Part shown: positions 1-29,273 of the stretch, in pieces
Numbering within the stretch: position 1 is the stretch's first letter
Layout of the letters: every line of letters starts with the position of its first letter
Assembly (NCBI GenBank): GCA_937950565.1
Contig: CALFCS010000190.1
Location: forward strand, 1,048-65,047
Origin: an uncultured Lachnospiraceae bacterium
GTDB taxonomy: Bacteria; Bacillota; Clostridia; Lachnospirales; Lachnospiraceae
DNA length: 64,000 nt
Reading direction: 5' to 3'
The notes under the pieces: model-generated
The model's database searches: none
The model's input: the letters and a program-made list of their open reading frames with translations, nothing else
What the model was told of the DNA's origin: nothing
Made by a program: the position numbers and the translations under genes

Positions 1-324
1 TGTGATATAACTGGTTTTAAACTCTGTCATAGGATACACTACCATTTCCAGGTTATACCGGTCACTGATTCGTCCCTCTGTTCTTTGATATTTCGCACAG
101 GATTCCTTCATTACTTTTTCCATGGATATAAGAACCCGGATATTCGCATCCAAAGCTTCCCTGCTTTTTACAAGTTCTGCTCTCACAGGTTCGGTATAAG
201 ACATATATTTTATTTTTGATTCTGCCTGTGTGATTTCATCACGCAGCAGGCGAAGCTCCATAATCTGCCAAAGCAGCCGTTCTCCGGTCGCCTGCATATG
301 CTTAAAGTCCATTTTCATTTCCAT
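1..324 (-). CDS. Partial CDS. Only the N-terminal 108 aa are visible and the gene runs off the window start. Helical protein, possibly another T7SS substrate.
   Basis: Open frame from ATG at 324 (MEMKMDFKHMQATGERLL...) with no stop before position 1. It is absent from the ORF track because it is truncated. Its helical N-terminus ends in KYQRTEGRI, which resembles YYRNADNRI in the N-domain of the 695-1666 protein. Confidence 0.45.
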   Translation of the reverse strand, partial: MEMKMDFKHMQATGERLLWQIMELRLLRDEITQAESKIKYMSYTEPVRAELVKSREALDANIRVLISMEKVMKESCAKYQRTEGRISDRYNLEMVVYPMTEFKTSYIT

Positions 325-326
325 AT

Positions 327-716
327 CTATTCCATCACCATATAAATTCGCTCACCATCTCTTGCCCCTTTACGAACTTGTTGCAAAAGAAGTTTTCTTG
401 TAAAGAAAACATAATAATCCTCTGGTTCCTCTGTTGTCATCTTTAAAACCGAATAGACTTTACTCGGCTCTTTTTGTATAGAAATAATTCTTTTCACTCC
501 AGCCAGATAACATTCTTCCGCTAAACTTTCAGCTGTTCTTTTATCACATTCAAGTAATTTGCTTATTTCACCTGCCACATTCAGATCCCCCACTATCTTT
601 TCCTCCTTATTTTCTTCTTTATTATCCTCTACCTTCTCACGGCTGTTACTGCAGCCTGCAAAAAGACAAATACTCATTAACAACAACACTCCAATTACCT
701 TTGCCCGGCAAACCAT
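327..716 (-). CDS. Small lipoprotein, candidate immunity protein for the upstream HExxH protein
   Basis: Signal peptide plus lipobox (LLLMSICLFAGC). A GGAGGA RBS lies 9 nt upstream of the ATG. It overlaps the 3' end of the upstream gene by 22 nt. Confidence 0.6.
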   Translation of the reverse strand: MVCRAKVIGVLLLMSICLFAGCSNSREKVEDNKEENKEEKIVGDLNVAGEISKLLECDKRTAESLAEECYLAGVKRIISIQKEPSKVYSVLKMTTEEPEDYYVFFTRKLLLQQVRKGARDGERIYMVME

Positions 717-1666
717 CTTGCATCTTCCTCCACACTTTGCTCCTTATATGCCCTATAAGCTTCTTCAGCATCCATCCCTTCTTCCATAAATTCATCAACC
801 CCCTTATAGCCATCAAAACTATTTTGCCACGACTGTATTGTCTCTTCTGTAACTACAAATTGTTCCGGATGTTCACATGCCGCATTTTGATATGCATGCC
901 GCATTTCATGTACAACTGTACTCAGCAATTCATATGAATCCTTAACACCATTTTTCCCTCCATTTTCTATTACCCATTCATTAATCCTTACTAAATGATA
1001 TCTCTCAGAATATGAACCCGATACATATCCATCTGGAGTACCCTCACTATATGTAAAATAAATCTCCCCTATTTGCAATCCCATGACACCTGCTACTTCT
1101 TGAAGATAGTCATTCAAAATTTCCTTTTTTTCTTCTGTAGACGCATTTTCCCAGGTCTTTTTAGAATAACGTTTCTTTTTTAAAATTGTAGAGATTTCAT
1201 TTTTCATATACTTGTCCATCTCTTTTTGCTGAGCATTTGTAACCGCTTTCCCTGGAGTCCGCACCTGCTTTTCTGCTTTGATAATCCCCCACGAAACAAA
1301 AAGACTTCGTATTCCCTGACAAATCCCCTCAACAAAAGATTCATTACCGGAATTGTTCTCAGTATTTTCCTGCATTTCTTTGACATTCGCATTCACTGAT
1401 AAAATGCGATTATCAGCATTCCGATAATATGAACTGATTTTTTCCAACGCACCTGACAGACTCCGCATCCCAAGTGCTTCATCCATTACATTCTTTTCAA
1501 TATGCATCAATACACTATTGATTCGATAAGAAGAACTCCCCATTCCTATTATATTTCTTCTTACGGATAATACTTCCTGTTGAACTTGATTTAATTGTAT
1601 CGCATAATGAGACAAAACTTCAACGGTATTTTCTATATCCGAAAGCTTTACACTAAACTCTGCCAT
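695..1666 (-). CDS. Putative T7SS-secreted toxin: N-terminal helical targeting-like domain fused to a C-terminal HExxH zinc-metallopeptidase-like domain
   Basis: 323-aa ORF with an AGGAGGAG RBS. It has an HEMRH motif (VVHEMRHAYQ) in the C-terminal half. The helical ~100-aa N-terminus sits directly downstream of the WXG100 genes. Confidence 0.6.
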   Translation of the reverse strand: MAEFSVKLSDIENTVEVLSHYAIQLNQVQQEVLSVRRNIIGMGSSSYRINSVLMHIEKNVMDEALGMRSLSGALEKISSYYRNADNRILSVNANVKEMQENTENNSGNESFVEGICQGIRSLFVSWGIIKAEKQVRTPGKAVTNAQQKEMDKYMKNEISTILKKKRYSKKTWENASTEEKKEILNDYLQEVAGVMGLQIGEIYFTYSEGTPDGYVSGSYSERYHLVRINEWVIENGGKNGVKDSYELLSTVVHEMRHAYQNAACEHPEQFVVTEETIQSWQNSFDGYKGVDEFMEEGMDAEEAYRAYKEQSVEEDARWFAGQR

Positions 1667-1669
1667 CTT

Positions 1670-2374
1670 CTACTCCTCCTGATAAACCATCCGAATTGCA
1701 TTTCCATGAATTGGGGCAATGCATTTTGTAATCGTATTAACATATATCTCTTTATCAGGTTTAACGATATGCACCTTTCCTTTTGACTCCTTTATCAAAA
1801 CCTGTTCTTTTTCATCCGACAAAACAACAATACTGATTTTTTTGTCTTTCGCCAATTCTTTACCCCACATCTCCCATTGATACTTAAAGCCTTTTTTCAA
1901 ATAACAATCTATATACTTTTCTCCATCCTCCAATGTATACTCACCTATCTCTACTGCATCTCTATTTAAAAATGGAGTATGCAGATTTGCCACTTTACCA
2001 ATCGCCAATGGAAGATATGGCACCCATATAAGTTCGTAGTTCTCATCTCTTTGTTCCACTATTCCTATCACATCATTTAAGAAATAAATTACGGTTTTTG
2101 ACAATATTACATCTTGTCGTAAATTTTCCATTATAAAATATCCATATGGATTTGCTGCTGTGATTAATATCAATTCTAATGTAGAATTTATCGCATACTT
2201 CTTATGTTGTTCTGAATAAATGTAGCCCTTTTCACATAGTGTTCTCAAACATTCTTTTGCAATTTCTTCTGTCTCTATAACAGACTTTTCTCCAAATCCA
2301 CATAACCCTTGAATGTCCTCAAACATTAGCAAAAATCTTAATTCTTTATCTGTAATCTGAAATACCCTAGCCAT
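1670..2374 (-). CDS. Uncharacterised T7SS-locus protein; its N-terminal ~70 aa are paralogous to the 4465-4890 protein
   Basis: 234-aa ORF tightly packed in the operon. ITDKELRFLLMFEDIQG...EEIAKECLRTLCEKGYI aligns by eye with LTFDEVRILLHAMEVTK...DEIIRAMHHMSEAGII. Confidence 0.6.
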   Translation of the reverse strand: MARVFQITDKELRFLLMFEDIQGLCGFGEKSVIETEEIAKECLRTLCEKGYIYSEQHKKYAINSTLELILITAANPYGYFIMENLRQDVILSKTVIYFLNDVIGIVEQRDENYELIWVPYLPLAIGKVANLHTPFLNRDAVEIGEYTLEDGEKYIDCYLKKGFKYQWEMWGKELAKDKKISIVVLSDEKEQVLIKESKGKVHIVKPDKEIYVNTITKCIAPIHGNAIRMVYQEE

Positions 2375-2393
2375 TTTTAATCCCTTCTTAAAT

Positions 2394-2696
2394 CTAATAC
2401 GTCCTCTTACGCGCCAGCTCCCTTGCCCGCATCTCTGCCCGGTATGTTCGCTCTGCAGATGAGCGGATTACGGATGCTGTCCTTGATAATTCTCTTGCCA
2501 GACTGCTTATCTCACTTTTCATTTTTTCGCCTTTCTGCATATAAGCGTCTGCACTGTCACCCTTCCAATTCCCGGAGAGTTTCTGCAGTGTATCATTCAT
2601 CTGCCCCGATGCCAGACGGGACAAGCGCTCCGCCTGCTCTGAGAGTCTGTCTGCCTGTCTTTTTGCCTGTATGTAATTCCACTCGATATAATCCAT
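2394..2696 (-). CDS. WXG100-family protein (class ending in ..RTY)
   Basis: 100 aa, two-helix composition, central W-x-G (GNWKGDSADAY). The C-terminus is ..AERTYRAEM..KRTY. Confidence 0.75.
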   Translation of the reverse strand: MDYIEWNYIQAKRQADRLSEQAERLSRLASGQMNDTLQKLSGNWKGDSADAYMQKGEKMKSEISSLARELSRTASVIRSSAERTYRAEMRARELARKRTY

Positions 2697-2712
2697 ATAT
2701 GCATCTCTCCTT

Positions 2713-3039
2713 TTACAGAATTACGTCTGCCGGTAAATCTCCTGATATCCCTTTTGCCTCTTCTTCTGCCCCGGTATACACCTGAGCCATCGACTTCAAA
2801 TCTGCCGCATGCTCCGAAAATCTCTGGAAGATTTCATCTACCGTTCCCTTCATCTCCTGGTAAGACGCCCGGTGTGCCTCCGCCGCATCTCCCTGCCAAT
2901 AGCCAGAAGAACGATTTACTGCAGCCTCGATATTTGCAAAACGGTTTCGGATATCGCCTACCGCCTGCTGCACTTCCTCTGCTCCTGTAAGCAATGCCTG
3001 CGGCGATGCCTTAATTCTGATATTCTCCATTGCCCGCAC
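2713..3039 (-). CDS. WXG100-family protein, EsxA-like (start could be GTG 3039 or ATG 3030)
   Basis: ~105 aa with W-x-G (SGYWQGDAAEAH). The C-terminus GDLPADVIL parallels LSADVII of the 3432-3746 paralogue. Confidence 0.8.
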   Translation of the reverse strand: MRAMENIRIKASPQALLTGAEEVQQAVGDIRNRFANIEAAVNRSSGYWQGDAAEAHRASYQEMKGTVDEIFQRFSEHAADLKSMAQVYTGAEEEAKGISGDLPADVIL

Positions 3040-3075
3040 CGACCTTTCTTTTCATTCTCACTTTTACTTTTATTT

Positions 3076-3378
3076 CTATACCCGAATAGAGGCAATCGCC
3101 TGCTGCACCGCATTTTCACATTTCTGATATTCCTTTTGTGCATACTCCATTGTCCCTATATATTTTTCAAGTTCATTTTCAAATTCCTGTACAAATTCAT
3201 AATCTGTATTAAACTGCGCCATAAATGCATTATGTGCCGGTCCTTCCCACATAGCTCCGAGATTAACCATCTTTTCCTGAAGCTGGCTAATCCCGGAATG
3301 GACCTTCTCTAATTCAGATTGTATTGTCTGCCTGTCCCTTTCCAAAGACACAGTATCAATTTCAATATAATCTGCCAT
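3076..3378 (-). CDS. WXG100-family protein
   Basis: 100 aa with W-x-G (GAMWEGPAHNAF) and a helical hairpin composition. Confidence 0.75.
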   Translation of the reverse strand: MADYIEIDTVSLERDRQTIQSELEKVHSGISQLQEKMVNLGAMWEGPAHNAFMAQFNTDYEFVQEFENELEKYIGTMEYAQKEYQKCENAVQQAIASIRV

Positions 3379-3431
3379 CTCACGGTCCCTCTCTTCCTAC
3401 ACTTTAATATTCCACTATCACAATCTATATC

Positions 3432-3746
3432 TTATATAATCACATCTGCTGAAAGACCGTTTGCCTCTTCTGCATTTGCCATATCTGCTTCTGAATAAAT
3501 CTGTGCCATTTCCTGCAAATCTGCACTATGCTCCTGTACCATACGAATCATTCTCTGAATGTCATCTTCCAGTCCGCGGAACTTTGTAATAAATGCGGTT
3601 GCTGCCTCGCCTTCCCAGGTAGATGCCATTCCAGTAATCAGATTCAACATTTCTGCCGTAAGATTATTAATTACATTCCCCTGATTTCCAAATTCTGACG
3701 CTGTACTCGTTAATAATTGTGGTGATACCTTAATAATTCCTTCCAT
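3432..3746 (-). CDS. WXG100-family protein, EsxA-like
   Basis: 104 aa with W-x-G (ASTWEGEAATAF). The sequence is typical of EsxA (IKVSPQLLTSTASEF...). Confidence 0.85.
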   Translation of the reverse strand: MEGIIKVSPQLLTSTASEFGNQGNVINNLTAEMLNLITGMASTWEGEAATAFITKFRGLEDDIQRMIRMVQEHSADLQEMAQIYSEADMANAEEANGLSADVII

Positions 3747-3809
3747 GATTGTTCTCCTTCTCTATGTTTTCTCTATTCTTTTTTTTCCTGATATTTTTTC
3801 TACACATTC

Positions 3810-4112
3810 TTACTTATAAGTTCTCTCTGCCGCAATCTCTACGTTGGTTGCTTCTGCCTGTGCATATCTTGCCGCAATTGCCTCAAGTCTCTGTGCATAT
3901 ACTTCAACAGCATTGTAAAAATTATCCATCTGGATCTTGTCACTGCTGAACGCATTGTGGAATGTGTTTTTTGCTTCACCTTCCCACATACCATTTAAGT
4001 TTGCCTCTGTTGCCTCCAGCTCACCCACCTGGCTTTTAAACTGTGCATTTAACTGCCTGAGTGTATCCACCTTCGCTTTTAAATCATTCATTGATACGGT
4101 AAAATCTGACAT
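3810..4112 (-). CDS. WXG100-family protein (class ending in ..RTYK)
   Basis: 100 aa with W-x-G (NGMWEGEAKNTF) and an AAGGAGGAAA RBS upstream. Confidence 0.8.
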   Translation of the reverse strand: MSDFTVSMNDLKAKVDTLRQLNAQFKSQVGELEATEANLNGMWEGEAKNTFHNAFSSDKIQMDNFYNAVEVYAQRLEAIAARYAQAEATNVEIAAERTYK

Positions 4113-4238: not shown

Positions 4239-4493
4239 CTACACCACCATAATCTTCCCGCCTGTCCGAAGCCCATTTTCATGCGCAGACTGTTCCTGCG
4301 TAAGCTCCCGGCCACTCTGGGTAAAGAGAAGAAGTCGCCCCGGCTCTCCCTGCAGCGGACATTGTTCTTTTCTGCATATCATTTCCGCTATCTCTTCCTT
4401 CACCTCGTAGAGCGGAACATTTTCATCTATCTGAAAATCATATTTCTTTCCCATAATCGGCACTTCAATTTCCACAATTATCACTCTGCACAT
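4239..4493 (-). CDS. esaB: YukD/EsaB-like ubiquitin-fold T7SS protein (start uncertain: ATG 4493, GTG 4484 or TTG 4511)
   Basis: Small protein next to EssC and the WXG100 genes. It has a beta-grasp-like pattern (IIVEIEVPIMGKKYDFQIDENVPL...GKIMVV). GGAGGGAGG lies just upstream of ATG 4493. Confidence 0.6.
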   Translation of the reverse strand: MCRVIIVEIEVPIMGKKYDFQIDENVPLYEVKEEIAEMICRKEQCPLQGEPGRLLLFTQSGRELTQEQSAHENGLRTGGKIMVV

Positions 4494-4890
4494 CCTCCCT
4501 CCATTTTTCAAAATTTTCTTTCTTAAATACCGTCAGCTTCAACGCTTCCTTTTTTCTCCAGAAGCGCTCGCTGACCACCACCTGTTCTTTCTTCCAATAG
4601 ACAAAGAAAGCCTGCCCATCTTCTCTTTCCGGCTTCCATACACCTGCCTGTTCCGGCTTAGACATAATCTCTAAGATCTGCCTGATATCATCTCTAATCT
4701 GAAATTTTTCTTCTCTGGCTTCGATAATACCTGCTTCGGACATATGATGCATCGCACGTATAATTTCATCTTCCCGAAAAATTTTCTCCGGCATATAGAT
4801 TCCTTCTATCTTTGTAACTTCCATTGCATGAAGCAGAATCCGCACCTCATCAAAAGTAAGAACAATTCCTTTTTCAAGCATCTCAGCCAT
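4465..4890 (-). CDS. Uncharacterised T7SS-locus protein, paralogue of the N-terminal domain of the 1670-2374 protein
   Basis: 141-aa ORF. It overlaps the LytTR gene stop by 8 nt. See the by-eye alignment given for 1670-2374. Confidence 0.6.
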   Translation of the reverse strand: MAEMLEKGIVLTFDEVRILLHAMEVTKIEGIYMPEKIFREDEIIRAMHHMSEAGIIEAREEKFQIRDDIRQILEIMSKPEQAGVWKPEREDGQAFFVYWKKEQVVVSERFWRKKEALKLTVFKKENFEKWREDVQSDNCGN

Positions 4891-5620: not shown

Positions 5621-5621
5621 G

Positions 5622-10328: not shown

Positions 10329-10343
10329 AGTCTGACACCTCCC

Positions 10344-10868
10344 TTACACGTATGCCATATCAAATGTAAATACTGTCACTTTCATTTTCAAATCTCCAAC
10401 CATGATCCGGTCACCGGAATATACATATTCTGCTCCCTGTATCAGATGCCTGCCAAACCCTCGCAAAATCCATGTGCCATTTCTGGAATTCAAGTCCTGC
10501 AGGACCAACTCGCCCTGATACAAATACAGCATACAATGTGTTCCGGATACCGTTTCCTCCCGAATGCAAATATCATTGATTTCAGGGCTGCGCCCAATCC
10601 GGATTTTTTTCTCCGGATCGAACACATATCCCCGTTTTTCGCTGTCCTTCCATTTCAAATAAAGCATAATCTTCTGCCCGCCCTGTATCTGCTTGCTATG
10701 ACTGCGGATAGCATTATTCAGGCAGTTTTCTTTAATTACTTTATATGCTGCATCATAATACTTTTGTTTTTCCGCCTTCTGGTTGGCATGCACCACATAA
10801 CTAACCACACTGGTGACTGCCACACAGATAACAATAATAATTCCTATTAACATAACAATTCCGTCCAA
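10344..10868 (-). CDS. Single-pass membrane protein with a C-terminal FHA domain
   Basis: N-terminal TM segment (IVMLIGIIIVICVAVTSVV). FHA pattern IRIGRSPEINDICIREETVSGTHCMLY...LQDLNSRNGTW. Confidence 0.75.
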   Translation of the reverse strand: MDGIVMLIGIIIVICVAVTSVVSYVVHANQKAEKQKYYDAAYKVIKENCLNNAIRSHSKQIQGGQKIMLYLKWKDSEKRGYVFDPEKKIRIGRSPEINDICIREETVSGTHCMLYLYQGELVLQDLNSRNGTWILRGFGRHLIQGAEYVYSGDRIMVGDLKMKVTVFTFDMAYV

Positions 10869-10892
10869 CTCCTCTGCATGGCAGACATAATT

Positions 10893-24420: not shown

Positions 24421-24966
24421 TTATAACATTTCTTCTGTATGAACCCACAGAATTTCCTTCTCTATCTTAAAAGCCCCCGGCAATTCCGGCTTATCCGGCT
24501 GCTTTGCTTCCTTCTCCTGATTCTGGTTTTGTGATAACAATGTTGTTTCACCACCGGAGCTTAGAAGTGTTGTCTCCGATGAACCGTCCTCCATCAGACC
24601 GTCTGTTTTTTGTGAGCCATCAGTGTAAACGTTCTCCGGTTTCCTCCTCTCAGAAACCGGCTGTGCCTGGGCAGGGGAATACACTGCTTGATTTCCAGCC
24701 TTCGGAGGTTCAATACGGTGTTCCGGCTGTTCGGCAATCGCACCGCTCGTTCCCACACTCTGCCGCAGTTTCCCGGTCTGGTCATTCATCTCCTTCATCT
24801 TCTGAATCGTCCGCTTTGCCCCACGTCCCGTCTTCATATCAAAAATACCGCGAATATTAAAACGGAAGAATAAAATAACCGAAATCACAAAAAATACAAT
24901 CGCCAATACCAGGAATATAAGAAATGCAACATGGTATATCTTAATCATCATTTCCAGCTTCTGCAT
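24421..24966 (-). CDS. Small single-TM protein with a cytoplasmic low-complexity tail carrying two ETTLL motifs
   Basis: Start set at ATG 24966 (AGGAGGT RBS 7 nt upstream). TM segment VAFLIFLVLAIVFFVISVILFF. The tail contains ..SSETTLLSSGGETTLLSQ.. Confidence 0.65.
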   Translation of the reverse strand: MQKLEMMIKIYHVAFLIFLVLAIVFFVISVILFFRFNIRGIFDMKTGRGAKRTIQKMKEMNDQTGKLRQSVGTSGAIAEQPEHRIEPPKAGNQAVYSPAQAQPVSERRKPENVYTDGSQKTDGLMEDGSSETTLLSSGGETTLLSQNQNQEKEAKQPDKPELPGAFKIEKEILWVHTEEML

Positions 24967-26710
24967 CCTTCTTACCTCCTGATTTATTATCCGTATCAAA
25001 TGCTTTCTCAGAAAATTCTTTCGAAACAGCATCCTTTGCCTGCTCTATCCTTTTCAAGACTTCTTTTTTCTTTTCTCCTATCTCATCTCCATCGTCTTCA
25101 ATGTAGGTTTCTACAAATCCCTGTACACTGTCCAGCTCGTTTTTCAATTCCGCCTGTGTAATTCCTACCTTCTTAAAATCTTTTGTATACTGATAAACCT
25201 GATAAACGAAATCCTCATACATAGCAAGCGCCATTGTAGGATTGTTATTCTGGCTGACAAGATTCTTTCCGCTAACCAATTCCATCATATCATTCCAGTA
25301 ATCCCGATAGCTTACCACACTTTCCCCCGTTTTATCCTCTACGTTCAGGCTTGCATAGTATTCTGCTATTTTGCACAGAATTCTGGAGTTTTCTACTTTG
25401 TAAGCTTCCAGACTTTCACTTTCAGCGGCTATCTCAAACCACTTCTGGGACATCTGTTTATTTCCTTTTTCTTCATAAAAGAAGTAATATGCCATCGCCA
25501 TATCATATGCAAATTCATCATATCCTTCTTCATTTGTCTCCAGGTAATCTTCATTACTCTTATTTCCATTACCTGTATAACCAAGGATTTCTTTCATTTT
25601 TTCTGCTTCTTCCTGCGTAAAATTCCCCTGGCTTCCATCACTTTCTTTATTATTCTTGAATTCGTCAAGCAATTTTATATACCCTTCACTTTCTTTCGGG
25701 TTAAGCTTGATTGCATTTGCATAATTTCTTGCTTTTTCTTCTATCGTGATTGCAGTAGCTGCATTCTTCATGTAATTGTCATAGCTTTTTCCGGTCGTAC
25801 TCGTCTCGGCAAATTTAAATCCAACACTGGCAGTCAGCGATACAACCGTCAGAATGGATGTCGTCAGAAATATTTTCCACTTGCGGTTCTGTACTTTTTT
25901 GTACTCCTGGTCCAGTTCGTCATAATGCTCCAGCGCATACATCAGTTCCGCGCAAGACTGATAGCGGTCGTCCGGATTCTTCTGCGTACATTTCAGAATG
26001 ATTTCCTCAAGACCGGAAGACAGATTGGGATTCCACTGACGAATCGGATACATCTCATAAGGAGGAAGGCACGGATTGTGTCCGGTAAGCAAATGATACA
26101 GTGTTGCGCCCAGGCAATATATATCTGTCCGCCCGTCGGTCTGCCCATGGCCTCCAAACTGCTCCGGCGCCGCATACCCCTGTGTTCCGAGACACGTGGT
26201 ATCTGCAATGCTTGCGGATTTGTACTCTCTGGCAGTACCGAAGTCAATAATCATGATATTTCCGTCCGGTCTGAGCATGACATTTGACGGCTTCATATCT
26301 CTGTAAATAATCGGTGGTTTTCTGGAATGAAGATATCCCAGCACATCACAAATCTGTTTTGCCCACTCGATTACCTTTTCCTGCGGCTGCGCTCCTTCTC
26401 TTTTCAGTGCTTCACTGAGCGGCCGCCCTTCTATGTAATCCATGACAATCAGGAACGTGTCCTCGCAGTCAATCACATCAATAATACTTGGCAGATTCGG
26501 ATGATCCAGACGTTTCAAAATATCCGTCTCAGCAATCAGATTCTGCTTGACGACCTCATAGTTAGACACTCCGTCCTTCCGGACTTCTTTAATCGCCCAC
26601 GGCTTATTGGCTCTCTCATTCATTGCAAGATAGACAATACTCATACCGCCCTGGCCTATTTTATTCAAAATCTTATATTTCCCATCTACAACGGAACCTA
26701 TTTCCAGCAT
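24941..26710 (-). CDS. Hanks-type Ser/Thr protein kinase with one TM segment and an extracytoplasmic TPR-like domain (no PASTA repeats)
   Basis: Kinase motifs: GQGGMSIVYLA, WAIKEV, YRDMKPSNVML, IDFGTA and GTQGYAAPE. TM segment IFLTTSILTVVSLTASVGF. Confidence 0.9.
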   Translation of the reverse strand: MLEIGSVVDGKYKILNKIGQGGMSIVYLAMNERANKPWAIKEVRKDGVSNYEVVKQNLIAETDILKRLDHPNLPSIIDVIDCEDTFLIVMDYIEGRPLSEALKREGAQPQEKVIEWAKQICDVLGYLHSRKPPIIYRDMKPSNVMLRPDGNIMIIDFGTAREYKSASIADTTCLGTQGYAAPEQFGGHGQTDGRTDIYCLGATLYHLLTGHNPCLPPYEMYPIRQWNPNLSSGLEEIILKCTQKNPDDRYQSCAELMYALEHYDELDQEYKKVQNRKWKIFLTTSILTVVSLTASVGFKFAETSTTGKSYDNYMKNAATAITIEEKARNYANAIKLNPKESEGYIKLLDEFKNNKESDGSQGNFTQEEAEKMKEILGYTGNGNKSNEDYLETNEEGYDEFAYDMAMAYYFFYEEKGNKQMSQKWFEIAAESESLEAYKVENSRILCKIAEYYASLNVEDKTGESVVSYRDYWNDMMELVSGKNLVSQNNNPTMALAMYEDFVYQVYQYTKDFKKVGITQAELKNELDSVQGFVETYIEDDGDEIGEKKKEVLKRIEQAKDAVSKEFSEKAFDTDNKSGGKKDAEAGNDD

Positions 26711-26721: not shown

Positions 26722-27504
26722 CTAATCAACTTTTATAATAATGACTGATATGTTATCATTTTCCTTGCGCTGCTTATTAAGTTCTGTGCAATAAGTAGCG
26801 GCTTCTTTCATATCCTGCTCGGTCGTCAAATTCTCCCGGTTCAGTATCTTCGAAAACTCCTCCGGTGTAATAACATGCCGGAATCCGTCTGAACAAAGCA
26901 GGAATACATCTCCTTCTTTATATGTTCCTTCATAAAAATCTGGTACTACTACCGGACTTGCACCAACGCACTGGAGCAGCACATTTTTCTGCGGATGTAC
27001 TGCGGCCTCTTCCGGGGTCATCCTTCCTTCATCTACTTCTCTCTGGACAAATGTCTGATCCTTCGTGAGACTCTTCATCCCCTCATTCACAAGGTACACA
27101 CGGGAATCCCCTACGTTAATAATGTAATAATCCCCTTCTACAAAGAGCAGCGCAGCCAATGTGGTCCCGCATGGTGCGTGACAGGTCTCCCCATACCCGG
27201 CGATTTTAACATTGATTTCATCGACCAGCTGGTTCCAGCTCTTCTGCAGTGCATTGTAGTCAATCTTGCCCTCTTTTCTTTCCTTATATAATAAGAAAGG
27301 AAATTCTTCTTCGAACCAACGAGAAAATGCCCTAATCAAAGTGGCGCTGGCGACCTCGCCTTTTGCAAGGCCGCCCATTCCGTCACAGATTACGGAAAGA
27401 TGAACCCTTCCGTAATCCGTACTTGCCTCTTTGATTAAGACAGAATCCTGATTGGTATTTTTTCTGATTCCAATATCTGTATGTGCAATACTCAAAAACC
27501 CCAT
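26722..27504 (-). CDS. PP2C-family Ser/Thr phosphatase
   Basis: Motifs TDIGIRKNTNQDS, ICDGMGG, VGDSRVYL and LLCSDG, which are typical of Stp/PrpC. It lies immediately upstream of a kinase gene. Confidence 0.9.
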   Translation of the reverse strand: MGFLSIAHTDIGIRKNTNQDSVLIKEASTDYGRVHLSVICDGMGGLAKGEVASATLIRAFSRWFEEEFPFLLYKERKEGKIDYNALQKSWNQLVDEINVKIAGYGETCHAPCGTTLAALLFVEGDYYIINVGDSRVYLVNEGMKSLTKDQTFVQREVDEGRMTPEEAAVHPQKNVLLQCVGASPVVVPDFYEGTYKEGDVFLLCSDGFRHVITPEEFSKILNRENLTTEQDMKEAATYCTELNKQRKENDNISVIIIKVD

Positions 27505-27545
27505 CTTATGTCTCCTGCCCTGATATTTTTATATCTGCCTCTTCT

Positions 27546-29273
27546 TTATGACAAATGAAATTCAAATTCTTCATCTGATAATTTCAATACTGACTGGTTC
27601 GATAAGAGCATCTCTTTATGCGGGCTTGCCTGCACGCCATTTACAAAGGTACCGTTCGCAGAACCCATATCTGCTACATAATAATCCGCACCTTTCTTAA
27701 TGATTTCGCAGTGAAGACGGCTGACAGTCGTATTATCCATAACACAGTAATTTACTTTTTTCTTCTCTTTACCGATTTTGAAATTCTGAAGATTAATCAT
27801 AATCTTCTCGCCATTTTTCTTACGGATCAAGTATGCGCTTCCTGCTCCTCCGCCGAGGAGTGTTGTCTCTCCTGCTCCTGCATCCAGAAGTGTTGTCTCT
27901 CCTGCTCCTTCCGGCATAGATGTTGATGTCGCTGTCGGTGAAGGCATGGACGGGCCGCCTGCTCCTGCCGGTGAAGACATTCCTCCCGGATAACCAGATG
28001 GTCCAACCGGCGGTTTTGCTTTTGCTGATTTTTTCTTCTTGCTTGAAGATACAACGATTACAATAATGATTATGATAATAATCACAACTGCCGCGATAAT
28101 TCCGCCGATGAGAATCATATTCGGTCCGGACTTCTCCTCCAGTTTCATTGCATCTTTTAACCTGCTGGTTGCTGAATTAATTTCTGTTGCCTCTGCATCG
28201 TCACCTTTGGCATAAACAGTTTCCGCCGCGCCGATTTCATCATTTAATTTTCCAACGCTTTCTTCTGTATATTTCTTCGCATCTTTCACAAGAGCTTTTG
28301 CCTCTTCAATCGTTGCCTGCAGGTCTGCAAGAATTTTTGAGTTATCTACCTTTTCTGGTCCTGGTGGAACGGGTGGATCTGGTATTACTTCACCCCCAGG
28401 TACATATGTAATACCAAAAGTATCCAGCCCTTTTCTCACCGCATTAATCTGAATAGAATAATTTTTCTTTCCGGCAATGAAGGAATTAATTCCGATTACA
28501 TTATCGTTTTCATCCATCAAAGGACCGCCTGAATTACCATTATTTAAGGTTGCAGTATGCTCAATAATATCTACGTCTGCCGTTGTTGCCTTTGAAATAT
28601 TTCCCACAACACTGGACACGTCATCCTTTGTATTATATTCCTTGTTGCTGATTGAATCGGAAGGATACCCCATGGCATACACCTGATCCTTTACTTCAAT
28701 CTGATCGCTGTCTCCTAATGCAACCGGCTTCCTGTCATATATCTTCTCTGCCAGTTTTACAGCTGCAAAGTCGAGATCATCACTATTTACGCTGTCATGC
28801 ATTGTCGCAGCCACACGCATATCGCGATTTACATATAAGTAGATTTTGATGTGACTGTCATTTGGTGCAAGGTTCGGAACATTAAAAAGTGTTTTGAAAT
28901 CTTGAAATTCATCATTATCCATTGTGATTACATGCTTATTTGTCAATACATATTCATCATTGATCAAAAAGCATGTACCCCATTTGAAGTCATAGAAATT
29001 ACCCGCATCATCTTCATATCCTAATGAAATCTGCATTACACTTTCTCTCGGATCGTTCGTTGCCGTCAAGAGGCCTGTATTCCCTGCGTTAGTGTTATCG
29101 TCTTCTGCTATAGTCGATATTTGAATCGGCTCTGGCGACAATGAACGTGGCTCAAGAGTATATTCTGGTTCTACTCCCTCTGCCATAACCGGCAGCACCA
29201 TCATCCACATCATGCAAATTGCTGTAAGCAGCGACAGCAGTCTGCCTGCTCTTTTTCTTGTTGTACTTCTCAT
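27546..29273 (-). CDS. Secreted/membrane-anchored trypsin-like (S1) serine protease, TM segment, two ETTLL motifs and a cytoplasmic FHA domain
   Basis: Signal peptide followed by the protease core (TNKHVI..., GNSGGPLMDENDNVIGINSF). TM segment MILIGGIIAAVVIIIIIIIVIVV followed by KKKK. Then GAGETTLLDAGAGETTLL and the FHA pattern FKIGKEKKKVNYCVMDNTTVSRLHCEI...DMGSANGTFVNG. Confidence 0.8.
   Translation of the reverse strand: MRSTTRKRAGRLLSLLTAICMMWMMVLPVMAEGVEPEYTLEPRSLSPEPIQISTIAEDDNTNAGNTGLLTATNDPRESVMQISLGYEDDAGNFYDFKWGTCFLINDEYVLTNKHVITMDNDEFQDFKTLFNVPNLAPNDSHIKIYLYVNRDMRVAATMHDSVNSDDLDFAAVKLAEKIYDRKPVALGDSDQIEVKDQVYAMGYPSDSISNKEYNTKDDVSSVVGNISKATTADVDIIEHTATLNNGNSGGPLMDENDNVIGINSFIAGKKNYSIQINAVRKGLDTFGITYVPGGEVIPDPPVPPGPEKVDNSKILADLQATIEEAKALVKDAKKYTEESVGKLNDEIGAAETVYAKGDDAEATEINSATSRLKDAMKLEEKSGPNMILIGGIIAAVVIIIIIIIVIVVSSSKKKKSAKAKPPVGPSGYPGGMSSPAGAGGPSMPSPTATSTSMPEGAGETTLLDAGAGETTLLGGGAGSAYLIRKKNGEKIMINLQNFKIGKEKKKVNYCVMDNTTVSRLHCEIIKKGADYYVADMGSANGTFVNGVQASPHKEMLLSNQSVLKLSDEEFEFHLS

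What the first reader, a model, noticed from the sequence alone, without database searches (positions are those of the whole stretch)
1..29273. T7SSb-like secretion locus in which kinases, a phosphatase and FHA proteins stand where EssA/EssB/EsaA would be
Seen in the sequence:
- A ~29-kb co-directional, overlap-coupled gene train contains unmistakable T7SS parts: EssC with FHA domains, a YukD/EsaB-like protein, five WXG100 genes and a toxin-like substrate.
- I find no recognisable EssB (pseudokinase membrane protein), EssA or EsaA.
- Instead there are two Hanks kinases with intact catalytic motifs (HSDIKPGN/DFN and YRDMKPSN/DFG) and TPR ectodomains.
- There is also a PP2C phosphatase and three additional FHA membrane proteins (10344-10868, 12484-13920, 27546-29273).
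- There is a TPR/CarboxypepD_reg membrane protein and a giant Ig-repeat protein.

Established knowledge:
- In canonical T7SSb the EssC FHA domains contact the EssB pseudokinase.
- In type VI secretion a PpkA/PppA/Fha1 phosphothreonine switch gates firing.

Inference:
- This may be a T7SS variant whose assembly or firing is controlled by genuine Thr phosphorylation read by FHA domains, with active kinases occupying the EssB niche.
- I am not aware of this architecture having been characterised.
Basis: partly seen in the sequence, partly recalled or inferred. Interest (0 to 1): 0.8.

Follow-up and report, generated by a model that had tools for sequence, protein, structure and literature searches.

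The report
Kinase-and-FHA-equipped type VII secretion locus
This is a real type VII protein-secretion gene cluster from a gut Lachnospiraceae bacterium that has kinases, a phosphatase and FHA proteins instead of the usual EssA/EssB/EsaA parts; that kind of cluster was already described in 2024, but this lineage fits none of the published subtypes and carries a conserved candidate phosphorylation motif.

Summary
Window 1-29273 is one co-directional minus-strand gene train.

**What is there**
- EssC, which passes NCBI's EssC model cut-off, plus a YukD-like protein and five WXG100 genes.
- Two Hanks kinases with intact catalytic residues, and a PP2C phosphatase.
- Three membrane-anchored FHA proteins, a TPR/CarboxypepD_reg protein and a 2767-aa Ig-repeat protein.
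- No EssA, EssB or EsaA signal, even at E<=10.

**Conservation**
- Of 36 related species loci with full flanks, 34 have a kinase, PP2C or extra FHA gene within 10 kb of essC.

**Novelty claim**
- It fails. Garrett, Higginson and Palmer (2024) described T7SSc-j with these components and already proposed phosphothreonine control by analogy with type VI secretion.
- A 2026 preprint demonstrates a comparable kinase/FHA switch on Esx secretion in Actinomycetes.

**What I add**
- The EssC forms its own Lachnospiraceae clade, nearest to T7SSi.
- Its core is T7SSi-like: LytTR protein, EspG-fold protein, YukD.
- Its signalling and envelope module is T7SSd/e/j-like.
- A tandem E-T-T-[LV]-L motif occurs only in three locus proteins and is conserved in hundreds of relatives. 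It resembles the GarA ETTS phospho-switch.

**Caveat**
- EssC's own FHA domain lacks the canonical Arg.

**Verdict:** a new variant of a known kind, of moderate interest.

The parts
1..326 (-). Start of a small helical ORF (WXG/Lap-like by appearance) that runs off the left edge of the window. The locus therefore continues beyond coordinate 1.
   Evidence: The frame is open with no stop codon over these bases. No family search was run on it.
327..716 (-). 129-aa lipoprotein with an LFAGC lipobox. It is a candidate immunity protein and overlaps the toxin gene by 22 nt.
   Evidence: Sequence and hydropathy and the overlap. No Pfam or NCBIfam hit. The function is inferred.
695..1666 (-). 323-aa candidate secreted toxin with a helical N-terminus and a C-terminal HEMRH (HExxH) zincin-like motif.
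   Evidence: Weak hits only: SprT-like at E 0.0066 and DUF6782 metallopeptidase at E 0.025. No LXG hit. The sequence is shown.
1670..2374 (-). 234-aa soluble protein of unknown function.
   Evidence: No family hit. The single-sequence AlphaFold model is unusable at pLDDT 36.8.
2394..3378 (-). Three WXG100 genes (2394-2696, 2713-3039, 3076-3378). They are less conserved than the other two and are probably partner proteins for the toxin (Lap-like).
   Evidence: Pfam WXG100 at 31.0, 49.6 and 33.6 bits against a cut-off of 27.3. In the closest relatives (L007-L009, L017) they are much less conserved than the other pair: 37-43% against 71-87% in L008, L009 and L017, and 70-76% against 91-92% in L007.
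3432..4112 (-). Two WXG100 genes (3432-3746, 3810-4112). They are the best-conserved pair and are probably the core EsxA/EsxB-like pair.
   Evidence: Pfam WXG100 at 52.6 and 39.4 bits. TIGR03930 at 61.9 and 44.6 bits. Identity is 71-92% in the closest relatives (L007-L009, L017).
4239..4511 (-). YukD/EsaB-like ubiquitin-fold protein. The true start is probably the ATG at 4493.
   Evidence: Pfam YukD at 27.9 bits against a cut-off of 27.0. Present in 34 of 36 full-flank loci.
4465..4890 (-). 141-aa EspG-fold protein, about one EspG subdomain in size. It corresponds to the TsiG/TshG class of chaperone.
   Evidence: AlphaFold2 with a 15-sequence alignment gave pLDDT 82.3 and pTM 0.77. The top 14 Foldseek PDB hits are all EspG1/3/5, at E 1.4e-4 to 9e-3 and query TM-score 0.56-0.66. 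It is 27% identical (E 6e-12) to the 239-aa protein at the same position in Anaeromicropila.
4883..5620 (-). LytTR DNA-binding protein with a degenerate receiver-like N-terminal domain. It sits 1 nt after essC.
   Evidence: LytTR at E 1e-24; Response_reg at 20.2 bits against a cut-off of 30.2. It starts within 400 nt of the essC end in 63 of 64 loci. The receiver residues are degenerate: D60 in 55 of 65, an acidic pair that is not conserved, T/S replaced by A, and K replaced by R in 40.
5622..10328 (-). EssC: N-terminal FHA region, two TM helices and three or more FtsK-like ATPase domains.
   Evidence: TIGR03928 at 1090.9 bits against a cut-off of 778.4. Pfam FHA and FtsK_SpoIIIE. Invariant Walker A motifs.
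10344..10868 (-). 174-aa protein with an N-terminal TM helix and a cytoplasmic FHA domain carrying canonical GR, SxxH and NG residues.
   Evidence: Pfam FHA at E 5e-12. Of 49 such ORFs, 40 end less than 400 nt upstream of essC. In the family the Arg is kept in 78%, Ser in 82%, His in 80% and Asn in 84%.
10893..12491 (-). Single-pass membrane protein with extracytoplasmic TPR and CarboxypepD_reg domains and an unassigned C-terminal domain.
   Evidence: Pfam hits, TM helix. Present in 13 of 36 full-flank loci.
12484..13920 (-). [quoted passage not shown]
   Evidence: Pfam FHA at E 5e-14, TM helices, motifs, start codon.
14108..16024 (-). Kinase 1: a Hanks kinase of the non-RD type (HSD, DFN), one TM helix and a TPR ectodomain.
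   Evidence: Pkinase at E 6e-40 plus TPR hits. K45, E60, D137, K139, N142 and D155 are conserved in 33-34 of 34 sequences.
16099..24402 (-). 2767-aa surface protein with a signal peptide, Ig-like repeats, a C-terminal TM helix and a 13-aa basic tail. This is the TsxI architecture.
   Evidence: Big_13, Big_3_2 and related hits. Protein ends shown. It is the fastest-evolving component, at 41% identity where EssC is 80%. Its length varies from 1140 to 2888 aa, and no giant-protein match is detected in the 10 kb upstream of essC in L010, which already holds the rest of the module.
24421..24951 (-). 176-aa single-pass protein with a short outside N-terminus and a disordered cytoplasmic tail carrying two ETTLL motifs (24562-24576 and 24535-24549). 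It resembles TsxH/K.
   Evidence: TM helix and sequence, motifs. The start codon overlaps the kinase 2 stop codon. Orthologues in L004, L005, L006, L027 and L085 keep 1-3 copies of the motif.
24941..26710 (-). Kinase 2: a Hanks kinase of the RD type (YRD, DFG), one TM helix and a helical ectodomain with no family hit.
   Evidence: Pkinase at E 9e-50. K41, E61, R137, D138, N143 and DFG are conserved. Its best NCBIfam match is the Stk1 family, at 216 bits against a cut-off of 450.
26722..27504 (-). PP2C/PPM Ser/Thr phosphatase related to Stp1/IreP. The DGMGG, GDSR, CSDG and DNIS motifs are all present.
   Evidence: PP2C_2 at E 9e-10. NF033484 at 182 bits against a cut-off of 230. Motifs located.
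27546..29273 (-). 575-aa protein with a signal peptide, an extracellular trypsin-like protease (His, Asp and Ser motifs present), FIVAR, a TM helix, two GAGETTLL motifs (27885-27899 and 27855-27869) and an FHA domain.
   Evidence: Trypsin_2 at E 5.5e-22 and FHA at E 3.8e-14. Catalytic motifs. The tandem motif is present in all 120 listed homologues. In the FHA signature G-K, S-R-x-H and N are invariant in 121 of 121 sequences.
29427..30599 (-). Remnant of an Mbeg1-like lipase (29427-29970) and its conserved 210-aa upstream neighbour (29967-30599). In relatives the intact pair lies just upstream of the protease-FHA gene.
   Evidence: tblastn with the 417- and 418-aa orthologues matches only their residues 1-51 and 111-243. 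The neighbour is 40-45% identical to its orthologues. Pfam Mbeg1-like hit. Gene order in L004 and L006.

Best explanation
**What it is.** This is a Lachnospiraceae-lineage type VII secretion system. It belongs to the non-canonical class described in 2024, in which EssA, EssB and EsaA are absent and a Ser/Thr phosphorylation module is built into the locus.

**Secretion core.** The core is EssC with a small membrane-anchored FHA protein immediately upstream. A LytTR/pseudo-receiver protein, an EspG-fold chaperone, a YukD-like protein and a WXG100 pair lie immediately downstream. Three further WXG100 partner proteins and an HExxH toxin with a lipoprotein immunity candidate follow.

**Switch (inferred).** The upstream half of the locus most likely acts as an envelope-facing switch.
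- Two catalytically competent membrane kinases, one of them with a TPR ectodomain, sit alongside a giant variable Ig-repeat surface protein and an extracellular trypsin-like protease. Together they would sense an outside cue.
- The kinases would phosphorylate the first threonine of tandem E-T-T-[LV]-L motifs. These motifs lie in the disordered cytoplasmic segments of three membrane proteins.
- The resulting phosphothreonines, which have a hydrophobic residue at +3, would be bound by FHA domains. The small FHA protein next to EssC is the most likely reader, and EssC's own FHA is a possible one.
- That binding would assemble or license the EssC machine.
- The PP2C phosphatase would reset the system.

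**Shown versus inferred.** Gene content, conservation, intact catalytic residues and the conserved motif are shown.
For: **Membership and missing parts**
- T7SS identity rests.
- No EssA, EssB or EsaA signal was found.

**Operon and neighbourhood**
- The genes form a tight train.
- Across 36 full-flank loci the counts are: kinase 28, extra FHA 26, PP2C 15, LytTR 30, YukD 34, and any of kinase/PP2C/FHA 34. The PP2C count is limited by the 10-kb flank.
- The upstream module, in the order protease-FHA, PP2C, kinase 2, single-TM protein, giant protein, is conserved in L004-L006; kinase 1 follows the giant gene in L006.
- The downstream module is conserved in L001-L003.

**Enzymes look active**
- The kinase catalytic residues are conserved.
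- The PP2C and protease catalytic motifs are present.

**The ETT motif**
- In the six-frame translation of the whole 64-kb window, ETT[VLI][VLI] occurs five times. All five are in three locus proteins, as tandem pairs.
- In 683,045 aa of ORFs from 86 loci, the strict motif occurs 16 times, and only in orthologues of those three proteins.
- It is present in 120 of 120 protease-FHA homologues and in 134 of 150 representatives clustered at 50% identity.
- The geometry is fixed. The two copies are 10 residues apart in 206 of 217 proteins, and the FHA G-K lies 30-32 residues after the last copy in 184 of 217.
- The same cassette is found in DUF6382-FHA proteins, which have the published TsxJ architecture.

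**Precedents**
- GarA has its ETTS phosphorylation motif in an unstructured extension next to an FHA domain (PMC5448819).
- An Esx-linked kinase, phosphatase and FHA protein with a phospho-Thr in the disordered region controls secretion in Schaalia (PMC13622651).
- The same hypothesis was proposed for T7SSd/e/j (PMC11217815).
Against: - No phosphorylation data exist for this lineage.
- EssC's FHA domain lacks the canonical Arg in 93% of homologues. The protease-FHA and polytopic-FHA families have an invariant Lys there instead, so phosphothreonine binding by these domains is not assured.
- The second motif copy ends only about 7 residues before the FHA fold begins, by my count on the window sequence. 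That argues against simple GarA-style binding within the same molecule for that copy.
- The modules can separate. In L004 the kinase module is not followed by essC within 10 kb, and in L002 essC has no kinase within 10 kb upstream.
- The invariant LytTR neighbour leaves room for purely transcriptional control.
- Whether EssA, EssB or EsaA are encoded elsewhere in the genome could not be checked.
Confidence: 0.55

Rival explanations
1. The kinase, PP2C, FHA and Ig-protein module is a threat or envelope sensor whose output is transcriptional. It would switch the T7SS genes on, for example through the LytTR protein, rather than assembling or gating the machine after translation.
For: - A LytTR protein follows essC directly in 63 of 64 loci.
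- The Esr1 pathway of Schaalia acts transcriptionally (PMC13622651).
- IreK controls T7SSb transcriptionally in Enterococcus, as cited in PMC11217815.
- One relative of the FHA cassette is fused to an HTH domain (P0263).
- The modules can sit apart.
Against: - The LytTR protein's receiver domain is degenerate, and no link between it and the kinases is evident.
- The most conserved FHA partner is membrane-anchored and lies directly upstream of essC.
- All three motif-bearing proteins are membrane proteins, which fits assembly at the membrane.
- The Esx-adjacent Esr2 pathway acts post-translationally.
- Both modes could operate together.
Confidence: 0.25
2. The kinases are mainly structural stand-ins for EssB. 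They would scaffold EssC through their kinase fold, with catalysis incidental or used only for autophosphorylation.
For: - They have the same topology as EssB. Garrett et al. made the same point for TscD.
- EssC's FHA domain has lost the canonical Arg, as in T7SSb, where FHA binds the pseudokinase without phosphate.
Against: - Every catalytic residue is conserved across 34 and 14 orthologues respectively. A pure scaffold would be expected to drift, as EssB did.
- A dedicated PP2C and a conserved Thr motif co-occur with the kinases.
Confidence: 0.1
3. The upstream half of the locus is an independent cell-surface or adhesin and stress-signalling operon. It would merely lie next to the T7SS genes in this lineage and have no functional coupling to them.
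For: - L004 has the module without essC in the next 10 kb.
- L002 has essC without a kinase in the 10 kb upstream.
- The giant protein varies in length, and no match to it is detected in the 10 kb upstream of essC in L010.
Against: - A kinase is present within 10 kb of essC in 28 of 36 full-flank loci, in species whose EssC proteins are down to about 42-50% identical.
- At least 14 contigs are shared between the EssC and protease-FHA homologue lists.
- The same component set recurs with EssC in the published T7SSd/e/j systems.
- The genes form a tight co-directional train.
Confidence: 0.07
4. It is an ordinary T7SSb whose EssA, EssB and EsaA genes are simply encoded elsewhere in the genome.
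For: - EssC passes the Firmicutes EssC model.
- Its D1 ATPase domain is 68.6% identical to that of S. aureus EssC.
- The rest of the genome cannot be seen.
Against: - No such gene is found in the 64-kb window's locus.
- The N-terminal 700 aa, which form the interaction region, are the least like S. aureus EssC of all FHA-bearing types: 123 bits against 270 for TsiC.
- Canonical T7SSb keeps these genes next to essC. This is from my own knowledge and from the PMC11217815 supplementary T7SSb sheet.
Confidence: 0.03

Closest known systems
T7SSi of Vallitalea (Garrett, Higginson and Palmer 2024, PMC11217815)
   Same: - TsiC is the closest published ATPase representative. Bit scores are 270 for the N-terminal 700 aa, 317 for D1 (tied) and 127 for D2, and it has the smallest distance in the tree.
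- Both have an EssC with FHA domains, followed by a LytTR regulator (TsiN), an EspG-like protein (TsiG) and a YukD-like protein (TsiB).
- Both belong to the order Lachnospirales.
   Different: - T7SSi is reported to have no kinase and no PPM phosphatase, and it has a ParA-like TsiM protein that is absent here.
- This locus adds two kinases, a PP2C, three FHA proteins and the Ig-repeat giant protein.
- Identity to TsiC is only about 30% over the N-terminal half.
- The Lachnospiraceae clade has no supported sister in my tree.
- WXG100 genes sit in a fixed position here, whereas in T7SSi their position varies.
T7SSe and T7SSj (and actinobacterial T7SSd) of Garrett et al. 2024
   Same: - They share a membrane Hanks kinase with an intact active site (TsxD).
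- They share a PPM phosphatase (TsxF).
[quoted passage not shown]
- They share single-pass proteins with unstructured cytoplasmic tails (TsxH/K).
- They share an FHA-domain component.
- T7SSe has a WXG100 pair, and TsjD has a TPR ectodomain.
- The same regulatory hypothesis was proposed for them.
   Different: - The FHA proteins here lack the DUF6382 domain that defines TsxJ. They are anchored instead by a protease ectodomain, a polytopic domain or a single TM helix.
- EssC is not closest to TseC, and it is farthest from TsjC among the Bacillota types.
- EssC's GR motif is not conserved (7% Arg), against 98-100% in TsdC, TseC and TsjC.
- This locus has two kinases, a LytTR protein and an EspG-fold protein.
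Canonical T7SSb (S. aureus Ess, B. subtilis Yuk)
   Same: - It shares EssC with N-terminal FHA domains, YukD/EsaB, WXG100 proteins, and toxin-immunity cargo with small helical partner proteins.
- This EssC passes TIGR03928.
   Different: - No EssB/YukC pseudokinase, EssA or EsaA is present.
- Active kinases, a phosphatase and extra FHA proteins are present instead.
Esr threat-sensing pathway linked to Esx in Actinomycetes (PMC13622651, 2026 preprint)
   Same: - A large variable surface protein, a Ser/Thr kinase, a phosphatase and an FHA protein are embedded in or next to T7SS operons.
- The FHA protein is phosphorylated on Thr in a disordered region upstream of its FHA domain.
- It controls secretion of a subset of substrates post-translationally.
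   Different: - The Esr pathway is reported as confined to Actinomycetes.
- It needs MoxR, vWA and transglutaminase proteins and a beta-propeller sensor. None of these was found in this locus by Pfam.
- No sequence relationship was tested. The comparison is an analogy of mechanism, not membership.
GarA/OdhI ETTS phospho-switch, and the T6SS PpkA/PppA/Fha1 threonine phosphorylation pathway
   Same: - GarA has an E-T-T motif in an unstructured segment next to an FHA domain, phosphorylated by Hanks kinases (PMC5448819).
- The FHA domains here give weak OdhI and TagH hits.
- The T6SS pathway is a case of a kinase, a phosphatase and an FHA protein gating a secretion machine, as cited in PMC11217815.
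   Different: - The OdhI and TagH scores are far below the family cut-offs: about 30 bits against 200, and about 26 against 120.
- The motif here is tandem, is followed by two hydrophobic residues, and sits in membrane proteins.
- The second copy abuts the FHA fold, so the switch may act between molecules rather than by autoinhibition.

Membership tests
Type VII secretion system (any subtype) | Membrane FtsK/SpoIIIE-type EssC/EccC ATPase | tested here: met
   TIGR03928 at 1090.9 bits against a cut-off of 778.4. Two or more FtsK_SpoIIIE domains and TM helices.
Type VII secretion system (any subtype) | WXG100 (EsxA-type) protein encoded in the cluster | tested here: met
   Five genes are above the Pfam WXG100 cut-off. 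Two of them are also above the TIGR03930 cut-off.
Canonical T7SSb | EssB/YukC membrane pseudokinase | tested here: not met
   No YukC/EssB hit for any locus protein in Pfam or NCBIfam, including the unknowns at E<=10. The two kinase-fold proteins keep all catalytic residues. Only the window was tested, not the whole genome.
Canonical T7SSb | EssA and EsaA membrane components | tested here: not met
   No EssA or EsaA hit in Pfam or NCBIfam for any locus protein. Only the window was tested.
T7SSi (Garrett 2024) | TsiC-type ATPase (phylogenetic placement) | tested here: inconclusive
   TsiC is the best-scoring representative and has the smallest distance, 0.75. However, the Lachnospiraceae clade stands alone with no supported sister; the best bootstrap grouping reached 12.5%. 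The reference sequences were taken from OCR text of the supplementary figure.
T7SSi (Garrett 2024) | LytTR regulator (TsiN), EspG-like protein (TsiG) and YukD-like protein (TsiB) | tested here: met
   LytTR at E 1e-24. EspG fold by AlphaFold2 and Foldseek. YukD.
T7SSi (Garrett 2024) | TsiM (P-loop/ParA-like protein with a C-terminal TM helix) and no kinase or phosphatase | tested here: not met
   No ParA/MinD-like gene is in the locus. Two kinases and a PP2C are present.
T7SSe / T7SSj (Garrett 2024) | Membrane Ser/Thr kinase TsxD and PPM phosphatase TsxF | tested here: met
   Pkinase at E 6e-40 and 9e-50, each with one TM helix. PP2C_2 at E 9e-10. Kinase 1 has a TPR ectodomain, as TsjD does.
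T7SSe / T7SSj (Garrett 2024) | [quoted passage not shown] | tested here: met
   2767 aa, Big_13 and other Ig-like hits, an N-terminal hydrophobic signal and a TM helix at aa 2737-2755. Met by architecture only; sequence relatedness to TseI or TsjI was not tested.
T7SSe / T7SSj (Garrett 2024) | TsxJ: N-terminal DUF6382 plus C-terminal FHA | tested here: not met
   No DUF6382 hit in any of the three FHA proteins. Their ETT-motif and FHA cassette is nonetheless homologous to that of DUF6382-FHA proteins P0389 and P0404, at E about 1e-26.
T7SSe / T7SSj (Garrett 2024) | TsxC FHA domain with conserved GR, SxxH and NG phosphothreonine-binding motifs | tested here: not met
   Over 120 homologues, Arg after the invariant Gly occurs in only 8 (Lys 72, Ser 10, Asn 10, Ala 7). 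SxxH is kept in 99-100% and NG in 100%. The published figures are 98-100% GR.
T7SSe / T7SSj (Garrett 2024) | ATPase clusters with TseC or TsjC | tested here: not met
   TseC is second best for the N-terminal region and tied for D2, but lower for D1 (59%). TsjC is the most distant Bacillota type. The reference sequences are OCR-limited.
Esr pathway (PMC13622651) | MoxR ATPase, vWA protein, transglutaminase and a beta-propeller surface sensor, together with the kinase, phosphatase and FHA protein | tested here: not met
   No MoxR, vWA, transglutaminase or beta-propeller Pfam hit among the locus proteins. The pathway is reported as confined to Actinomycetes.
GarA/OdhI family | Small soluble FHA protein with an N-terminal ETTS motif that scores above the OdhI model | tested here: not met
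   NF041660 scores are 19-31 bits against a cut-off of 200. The proteins here are membrane proteins. Only the combination of motif and FHA domain is similar.
Phosphothreonine-regulated secretion (functional class) | Thr phosphorylation of a component, read by an FHA domain, changes secretion | not testable with these tools
   This needs phosphoproteomics, binding assays and mutants. Only sequence competence is shown: catalytic residues, a conserved motif and FHA signatures.

The most novel reading that the evidence does not exclude
The window represents an unclassified subtype of T7SS that is widespread in gut Lachnospiraceae, with relatives in at least 578 species genomes. In this reading, firing is gated by a modular 'tandem ETTxL plus FHA' phospho-switch cassette. 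The cassette would be shared with the TsxJ proteins of T7SSe/f/j and grafted onto different sensor modules: an extracellular serine protease, a polytopic domain, an HTH domain or DUF6382. It would then be the common regulatory currency of non-canonical Gram-positive T7SSs, and the membrane protease-FHA protein would be a functional counterpart of mycosin.
Probability: 0.3. Interest if true: 0.7.

Novelty: new variant of a known kind. Interest (0 to 1): 0.45.

Why it matters
- Lachnospiraceae are among the dominant commensals of the human and animal gut. A T7SS present in hundreds of their species is likely to shape competition between bacteria there.
- How the non-canonical T7SS variants are built and switched on is unknown. 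Only bioinformatic descriptions exist for Bacillota, plus one experimental preprint for Actinomycetes.
- The conserved tandem ETT[LV]L motif gives specific residues to mutate and specific peptides to test. The canonical small FHA protein next to EssC gives a specific reader to test.
- Together these turn the general idea that the system 'may be regulated by phosphorylation' into a concrete experiment.
- The finding does not reveal a new kind of system.

Tried and rejected
- **Promoter and terminator scans.** For the most part counts were close to the shuffle expectation (22 against 19.8 promoter-like sites and 8 against 5.6 terminator-like sites in one region; 11 against 10.3 terminator-like sites in the other). 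The one exception was 49 against 35.3 promoter-like sites (sd 5.8) over 1-17000. No site stood out, so I drew no operon boundaries from them.
- **Single-sequence AlphaFold2 of the 234-aa unknown, 1670-2374.** pLDDT was 36.8, so the model is unusable. Its weak resemblance to the EspG-fold protein (E 0.1-0.9) is not significant and I dropped it.
- **Placing the EssC in the published tree.** Only OCR text of one representative per subtype was available. A neighbour-joining tree on 439 columns gave no supported sister group, so I do not assign a subtype. The first tree script timed out.
- **Searching the paper's supplements for Lachnospiraceae genus names.** This found nothing. The stored files are truncated and mostly hold accession numbers, so the result is not proof that the authors never sampled this lineage.
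- **Subtype T7SSj.** The TPR kinase suggested it, but I rejected it. TsjC is the most distant Bacillota ATPase, and there is no DUF6382.
- **Reading the polytopic FHA protein as an EsaA equivalent.** I rejected this. There is no family hit and no large ectodomain.
- **Simple GarA-style autoinhibition for both motif copies.** This is doubtful for the second copy, which ends about 7 residues before the FHA fold.
- **Not possible here.** I could not search the whole genome for EssB. I could not inspect the genomic context of the DUF6382-FHA proteins.

Full report
**1. Checking the observation**

All genes from the left edge of the window to 29273 lie on the minus strand. With corrected start codons, the 21 genes form a tight train. 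No gap exceeds 187 nt, most are under 75 nt, and five junctions overlap.

- EssC (5622-10328) scores 1090.9 bits on TIGR03928, whose cut-off is 778.4. It has an FHA domain and FtsK_SpoIIIE domains.
- The YukD-like protein only just passes, at 27.9 bits against 27.0.
- All five WXG100 proteins are above threshold.
- There are two Pkinase proteins (E 6e-40 and 9e-50), each followed by one TM helix, and a PP2C.
- There are three further FHA proteins and a TM-TPR-CarboxypepD_reg protein.
- The 2767-aa protein has Ig-like domains, a signal-like N-terminus and a C-terminal TM helix followed by a short basic tail.

No locus protein hits EssB/YukC, EssA, EsaA or DUF6382, even when the unknowns and sub-regions are scanned at E<=10.

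Several things were missed or overstated.
- The 575-aa FHA protein is also an extracellular trypsin-like protease with a FIVAR domain. Its His, Asp and Ser motifs are present.
- Only kinase 1 has a demonstrable TPR ectodomain.
- A LytTR protein and a 141-aa unknown lie between essC and yukD.
- The putative toxin has HExxH but no LXG hit.
- An open frame runs off coordinate 1, so the locus is cut by the window edge.

**2. Source organism and conservation**

The EssC is identical to a JGI metagenome protein. Its nearest named relatives are Lachnospiraceae bacterium UBA7109 (81%), Faecalimonas umbilicata (80%), Faecalicatena (72-74%) and Blautia pseudococcoides (58%).

A scan of one genome per species found at least 578 genomes encoding a relative. 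The 80 loci kept are nearly all Lachnospiraceae or other Clostridia.

Gene neighbourhoods anchored on EssC in Blautia and Faecalimonas show this order: giant Ig protein, kinase, a variable gene or two (a polytopic FHA protein in Faecalimonas, two small ORFs in Blautia), CarboxypepD_reg protein, small FHA protein, EssC, LytTR, small unknown, YukD, WXG100 genes. The Anaeromicropila locus keeps only the stretch from the small FHA protein onwards.

Neighbourhoods anchored on the protease-FHA protein show this order: Mbeg1-like lipase (in two of the three loci), protease-FHA, PP2C, kinase, single-TM protein, giant Ig protein; kinase 1 follows the giant gene in L006.

I ran tblastn with the window proteins against all loci and restricted the count to the 36 loci with full 10-kb flanks.

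| Component within 10 kb of essC | Loci (of 36) |
|---|---|
| Kinase | 28 |
| Extra FHA gene | 26 |
| PP2C | 15 |
| LytTR | 30 |
| YukD | 34 |
| At least one of kinase, PP2C or FHA | 34 |

The PP2C count is limited because in the window that gene lies about 16 kb from essC.

The modules are separable, however.
- L004 has the kinase module with no essC in the next 10 kb.
- L002 has essC with no kinase upstream.
- In L010 the rest of the module lies within the 10 kb upstream of essC and no match to the giant protein is detected there.

**3. Prior knowledge**

Garrett, Higginson and Palmer (microLife 2024, PMC11217815) defined eight further T7SS subtypes, T7SSc to T7SSj. [quoted passage not shown] They describe these components:
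- TsxD, a membrane kinase with EssB-like topology but a conserved active site.
- TsxF, a PPM phosphatase.
- TsxH and TsxK, single-pass proteins with unstructured cytoplasmic stretches.
- TsxJ, a protein with DUF6382 and an FHA domain.

They explicitly propose that assembly or activity is controlled by threonine phosphorylation, by analogy with the T6SS.

No paper in the library reports experiments on T7SSc-j in Bacillota.

A September 2026 preprint (PMC13622651) does give experimental support in Actinomycetes. In Schaalia, a surface sensor, a kinase, a phosphatase and an FHA protein control Esx. The FHA protein is phosphorylated on Thr in a disordered region upstream of its FHA domain. One copy of the pathway acts transcriptionally. 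The Esx-embedded copy acts post-translationally on late substrates. That pathway needs MoxR, vWA and transglutaminase proteins and is reported as confined to Actinomycetes.

**4. Which subtype is it?**

I rebuilt representative TsxC sequences from the OCR text of the paper's Fig. S2 and compared them with the window EssC.

| Region | Result |
|---|---|
| D1 ATPase | Identity: EssC 68.6%, TsgC 67.7%, TsiC 67.1%, TseC 59%, TsjC 52.5% |
| D2 ATPase | Identity: TseC and TsiC both 33.8%; EssC 26.5%; TsjC 27.4% |
| N-terminal 700 aa | Bit scores: TsiC 270, TseC 231, TsfC 184, TsjC 154, TsdC 144, EssC 123 |

A neighbour-joining tree on 439 columns puts the five Lachnospiraceae sequences on their own branch.
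- The distance to TsiC is 0.75, against at most 0.36 within the clade.
- No sister group is supported; the best grouping reached 12.5% of 200 bootstraps.

TsiC is thus the nearest published representative, though only distantly. Gene content agrees with this.
- T7SSi (Vallitalea, order Lachnospirales) is the only published subtype with a LytTR regulator, TsiN. It also has an EspG-like TsiG and a YukD-like TsiB.
- An AlphaFold2 model of the 141-aa unknown, built from a 15-sequence alignment, reached pLDDT 82 and pTM 0.77. Its top 14 PDB matches by Foldseek are all EspG chaperones, with E from 1.4e-4 to 9e-3 and query TM-score 0.56-0.66. The match covers about half of EspG.

T7SSi, however, is reported to have no kinase and has a ParA-like TsiM. 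This locus has no TsiM and does have the kinase, PPM, Ig-giant and FHA set typical of T7SSd/e/j.

Its FHA proteins lack DUF6382.

Its EssC FHA motif pattern is Arg in 7%, SxxH in 99-100% and NG in 100%. That matches none of the published patterns.

I conclude that it is a distinct Lachnospiraceae variant: a T7SSi-like core joined to a d/e/j-like signalling and envelope module. The caveat is that the reference data were limited to OCR text of one sequence per subtype.

**5. Competence of the signalling parts**

*Kinases and phosphatase.*
- In the kinase 1 family (34 sequences) the Gly-rich loop, K45, E60, the H-x-D-I-K-P-x-N catalytic loop and D155 are kept in 33-34 sequences. It is a non-RD kinase, and its DFN variant is family-wide (30 of 34).
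- The kinase 2 family (14 sequences) keeps K41, E61, R137-D138, N143 and DFG.
- The PP2C has the DGMGG, GDSR, CSDG and DNIS motifs. It is most similar to Stp1/IreP, and kinase 2 is most similar to Stk1 without its PASTA domains.

*FHA domains.*
- A small FHA protein ends less than 400 nt upstream of essC in 40 of 49 cases. It keeps the canonical residues: Arg 78%, Ser 82%, His 80%, Asn 84%.
- The protease-FHA family has an invariant G-K in place of G-R, together with invariant S-R-x-H and Asn, in 121 of 121 sequences.
- In the EssC FHA domain the corresponding position is variable.

*LytTR protein.*
- It starts within 400 nt of the essC stop in 63 of 64 loci.
- Its receiver-like domain is degenerate, so it is unlikely to be a conventional two-component response regulator.

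**6. A conserved candidate phospho-switch**

The motif E-T-T-[VLI]-[VLI] occurs five times in the six-frame translation of the whole 64-kb window. All five are in three locus proteins, each time as a tandem pair 9-10 residues apart, and a sixth copy is ETSVL. The three proteins are:
- the protease-FHA protein;
- the polytopic FHA protein, where the pair lies just upstream of the FHA domain;
- the 176-aa single-pass protein, where the pair lies in its cytoplasmic tail.

The motif is specific to these families. In 683,045 aa of plus-strand ORFs from 86 loci, the strict motif occurs 16 times, and only in orthologues of these three proteins. My rough estimate from typical amino-acid frequencies is that about 2 occurrences would be expected by chance.

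The motif is also strongly conserved.
- All 120 listed protease-FHA homologues carry it: 107 with two copies, 7 with three and 6 with one.
- A library-wide HMMER search with the 135-aa cassette returned 13,169 hits at E<=0.001.
- Of the best 150 representatives, 134 have the motif in their last 170 residues, as ETTVL, ETSVL or ETTLL.

The geometry is fixed. The two copies are 10 residues apart in 206 of 217 proteins. The FHA G-K lies 30-32 residues after the last copy in 184 of 217.

The cassette is attached to different N-terminal modules. These include an HTH domain (P0263) and DUF6382 (P0389, P0404), which is the published TsxJ architecture.

It resembles the ETTS motif of GarA/OdhI. That motif lies in an unstructured extension next to an FHA domain, and Hanks kinases phosphorylate it to switch the protein (PMC5448819).

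From my own knowledge:
- FHA domains select mainly on the residue three positions after the phosphothreonine, often a hydrophobic one.
- Mycobacterial Hanks kinases favour acidic residues before the acceptor and hydrophobic residues after it.

Both preferences fit phosphorylation of the first Thr.

The motif also occurs in the tail of a protein that has no FHA domain. That points to a linear recognition motif rather than a structural part of the FHA fold. Garrett et al. do not mention the motif in the text I read.

**7. Most likely mechanism, and its limits**

I think the locus most likely encodes a T7SS whose activity is coupled to an envelope-facing Ser/Thr phosphorylation switch, as set out under 'best explanation'.

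These points are shown:
- composition and synteny;
- conservation across species;
- catalytic competence at the sequence level;
- the conserved motif cassette.

These points are inferred:
- that the motifs are phosphorylated;
- which FHA domain reads them;
- whether the output is assembly or gating rather than transcription.

Four observations count against a simple reading.
- EssC's FHA domain lacks the canonical Arg.
- The cassette FHA domains have Lys at that position.
- The second motif copy abuts the FHA fold.
- The modules can separate in some genomes.

The giant Ig protein is the fastest-evolving part of the locus, at 41% identity where EssC is 80%. That fits an exposed sensor or target-recognition role, as with EsrA, at least as well as a conduit role.

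**8. Verdict**

It is plausible and consistent with the sequences, but untested.
- The novelty claim is not supported.
- The class of system is known. This lineage is a new variant of it, with a newly noticed conserved motif that makes the published hypothesis directly testable.
- Interest is moderate, at 0.45.

Noticed in passing
window 29427-30599 (minus strand): An Mbeg1-like lipase gene survives only as a remnant. It matches residues 1-51 and 111-243 of the 417- and 418-aa orthologues, and the helical C-terminal third is missing. Its 210-aa upstream neighbour is intact. In L004 and L006 the intact pair sits directly upstream of the protease-FHA gene. It may be a decayed 'reverse' lipase substrate of the TslA type.
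   Followed up: partly
window 4883-5620; loci L007-L086: A LytTR protein with a degenerate receiver domain starts within 400 nt of the essC stop in 63 of 64 loci, and 1 nt after it in the window. The acidic pair is not conserved, the T/S position is Ala, and the Lys is Arg in 40 of 65 sequences. So strict a coupling is unusual for a plain transcription factor.
   Followed up: partly
fha575 family (P0121-P0240) and window 27546-27950: The FHA signature is invariantly G-K rather than G-R in 121 of 121 sequences, with S-R-x-H and Asn also invariant. This is a conserved variant of the phosphothreonine pocket. Its binding competence is unknown.
   Followed up: partly
P0389, P0404, P0263: The tandem ETTVL and FHA cassette, including a shared C-terminal 'ADEEFEF' ending, also occurs on DUF6382 proteins (the published TsxJ architecture) and on an HTH-TM protein. 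The cassette therefore looks like a mobile module. I could not inspect the genomic context of these proteins.
   Followed up: partly
L004 (Faecalicatena-type contig), 10001-18996: The module of protease-FHA, PP2C, kinase, single-TM protein and a shorter 1140-aa Ig protein is followed by ABC-transporter genes. No kinase 1 or essC lies within 10 kb, so the module can exist apart from essC.
   Followed up: no
window 42070-45300: A second, divergently arranged signalling cluster lies here. It has two zinc-ribbon membrane proteins (42070-42720 and 42736-43443, minus strand), an unknown 206-aa ORF, and a third Hanks-type kinase with C-terminal TM helices (44053-45300, plus strand). The published TseK resembles zinc-ribbon proteins by BLAST.
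   Followed up: no
window 61517-63981, and 40643-41848: A phage-type integrase (61517-62722) lies next to a Rep_trans rolling-circle replication initiator (62968-63981), which suggests an integrated mobile element at the right end of the window. An AAA_21 (AbiEii-like) ATPase is at 40643-41848.
   Followed up: no
window 33215-36793: Two adjacent paralogous adenine deaminase genes (578 and 593 aa) lie between the T7SS locus and the rest of the window.
   Followed up: no
window 1-326 (minus strand): An open helical ORF (MEMKMDFKHMQATGERLL...) runs off the left edge. Further T7SS cargo or partner genes probably lie beyond the window.
   Followed up: no
L002 (Anaeromicropila herbilytica AP024169.1), 21499-23109: This essC locus has no kinase within 10 kb upstream. 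It does have a vWA-FHA fusion protein downstream of the WXG100 genes, reminiscent of the vWA component of T7SSc and of the actinobacterial Esr pathway.
   Followed up: no
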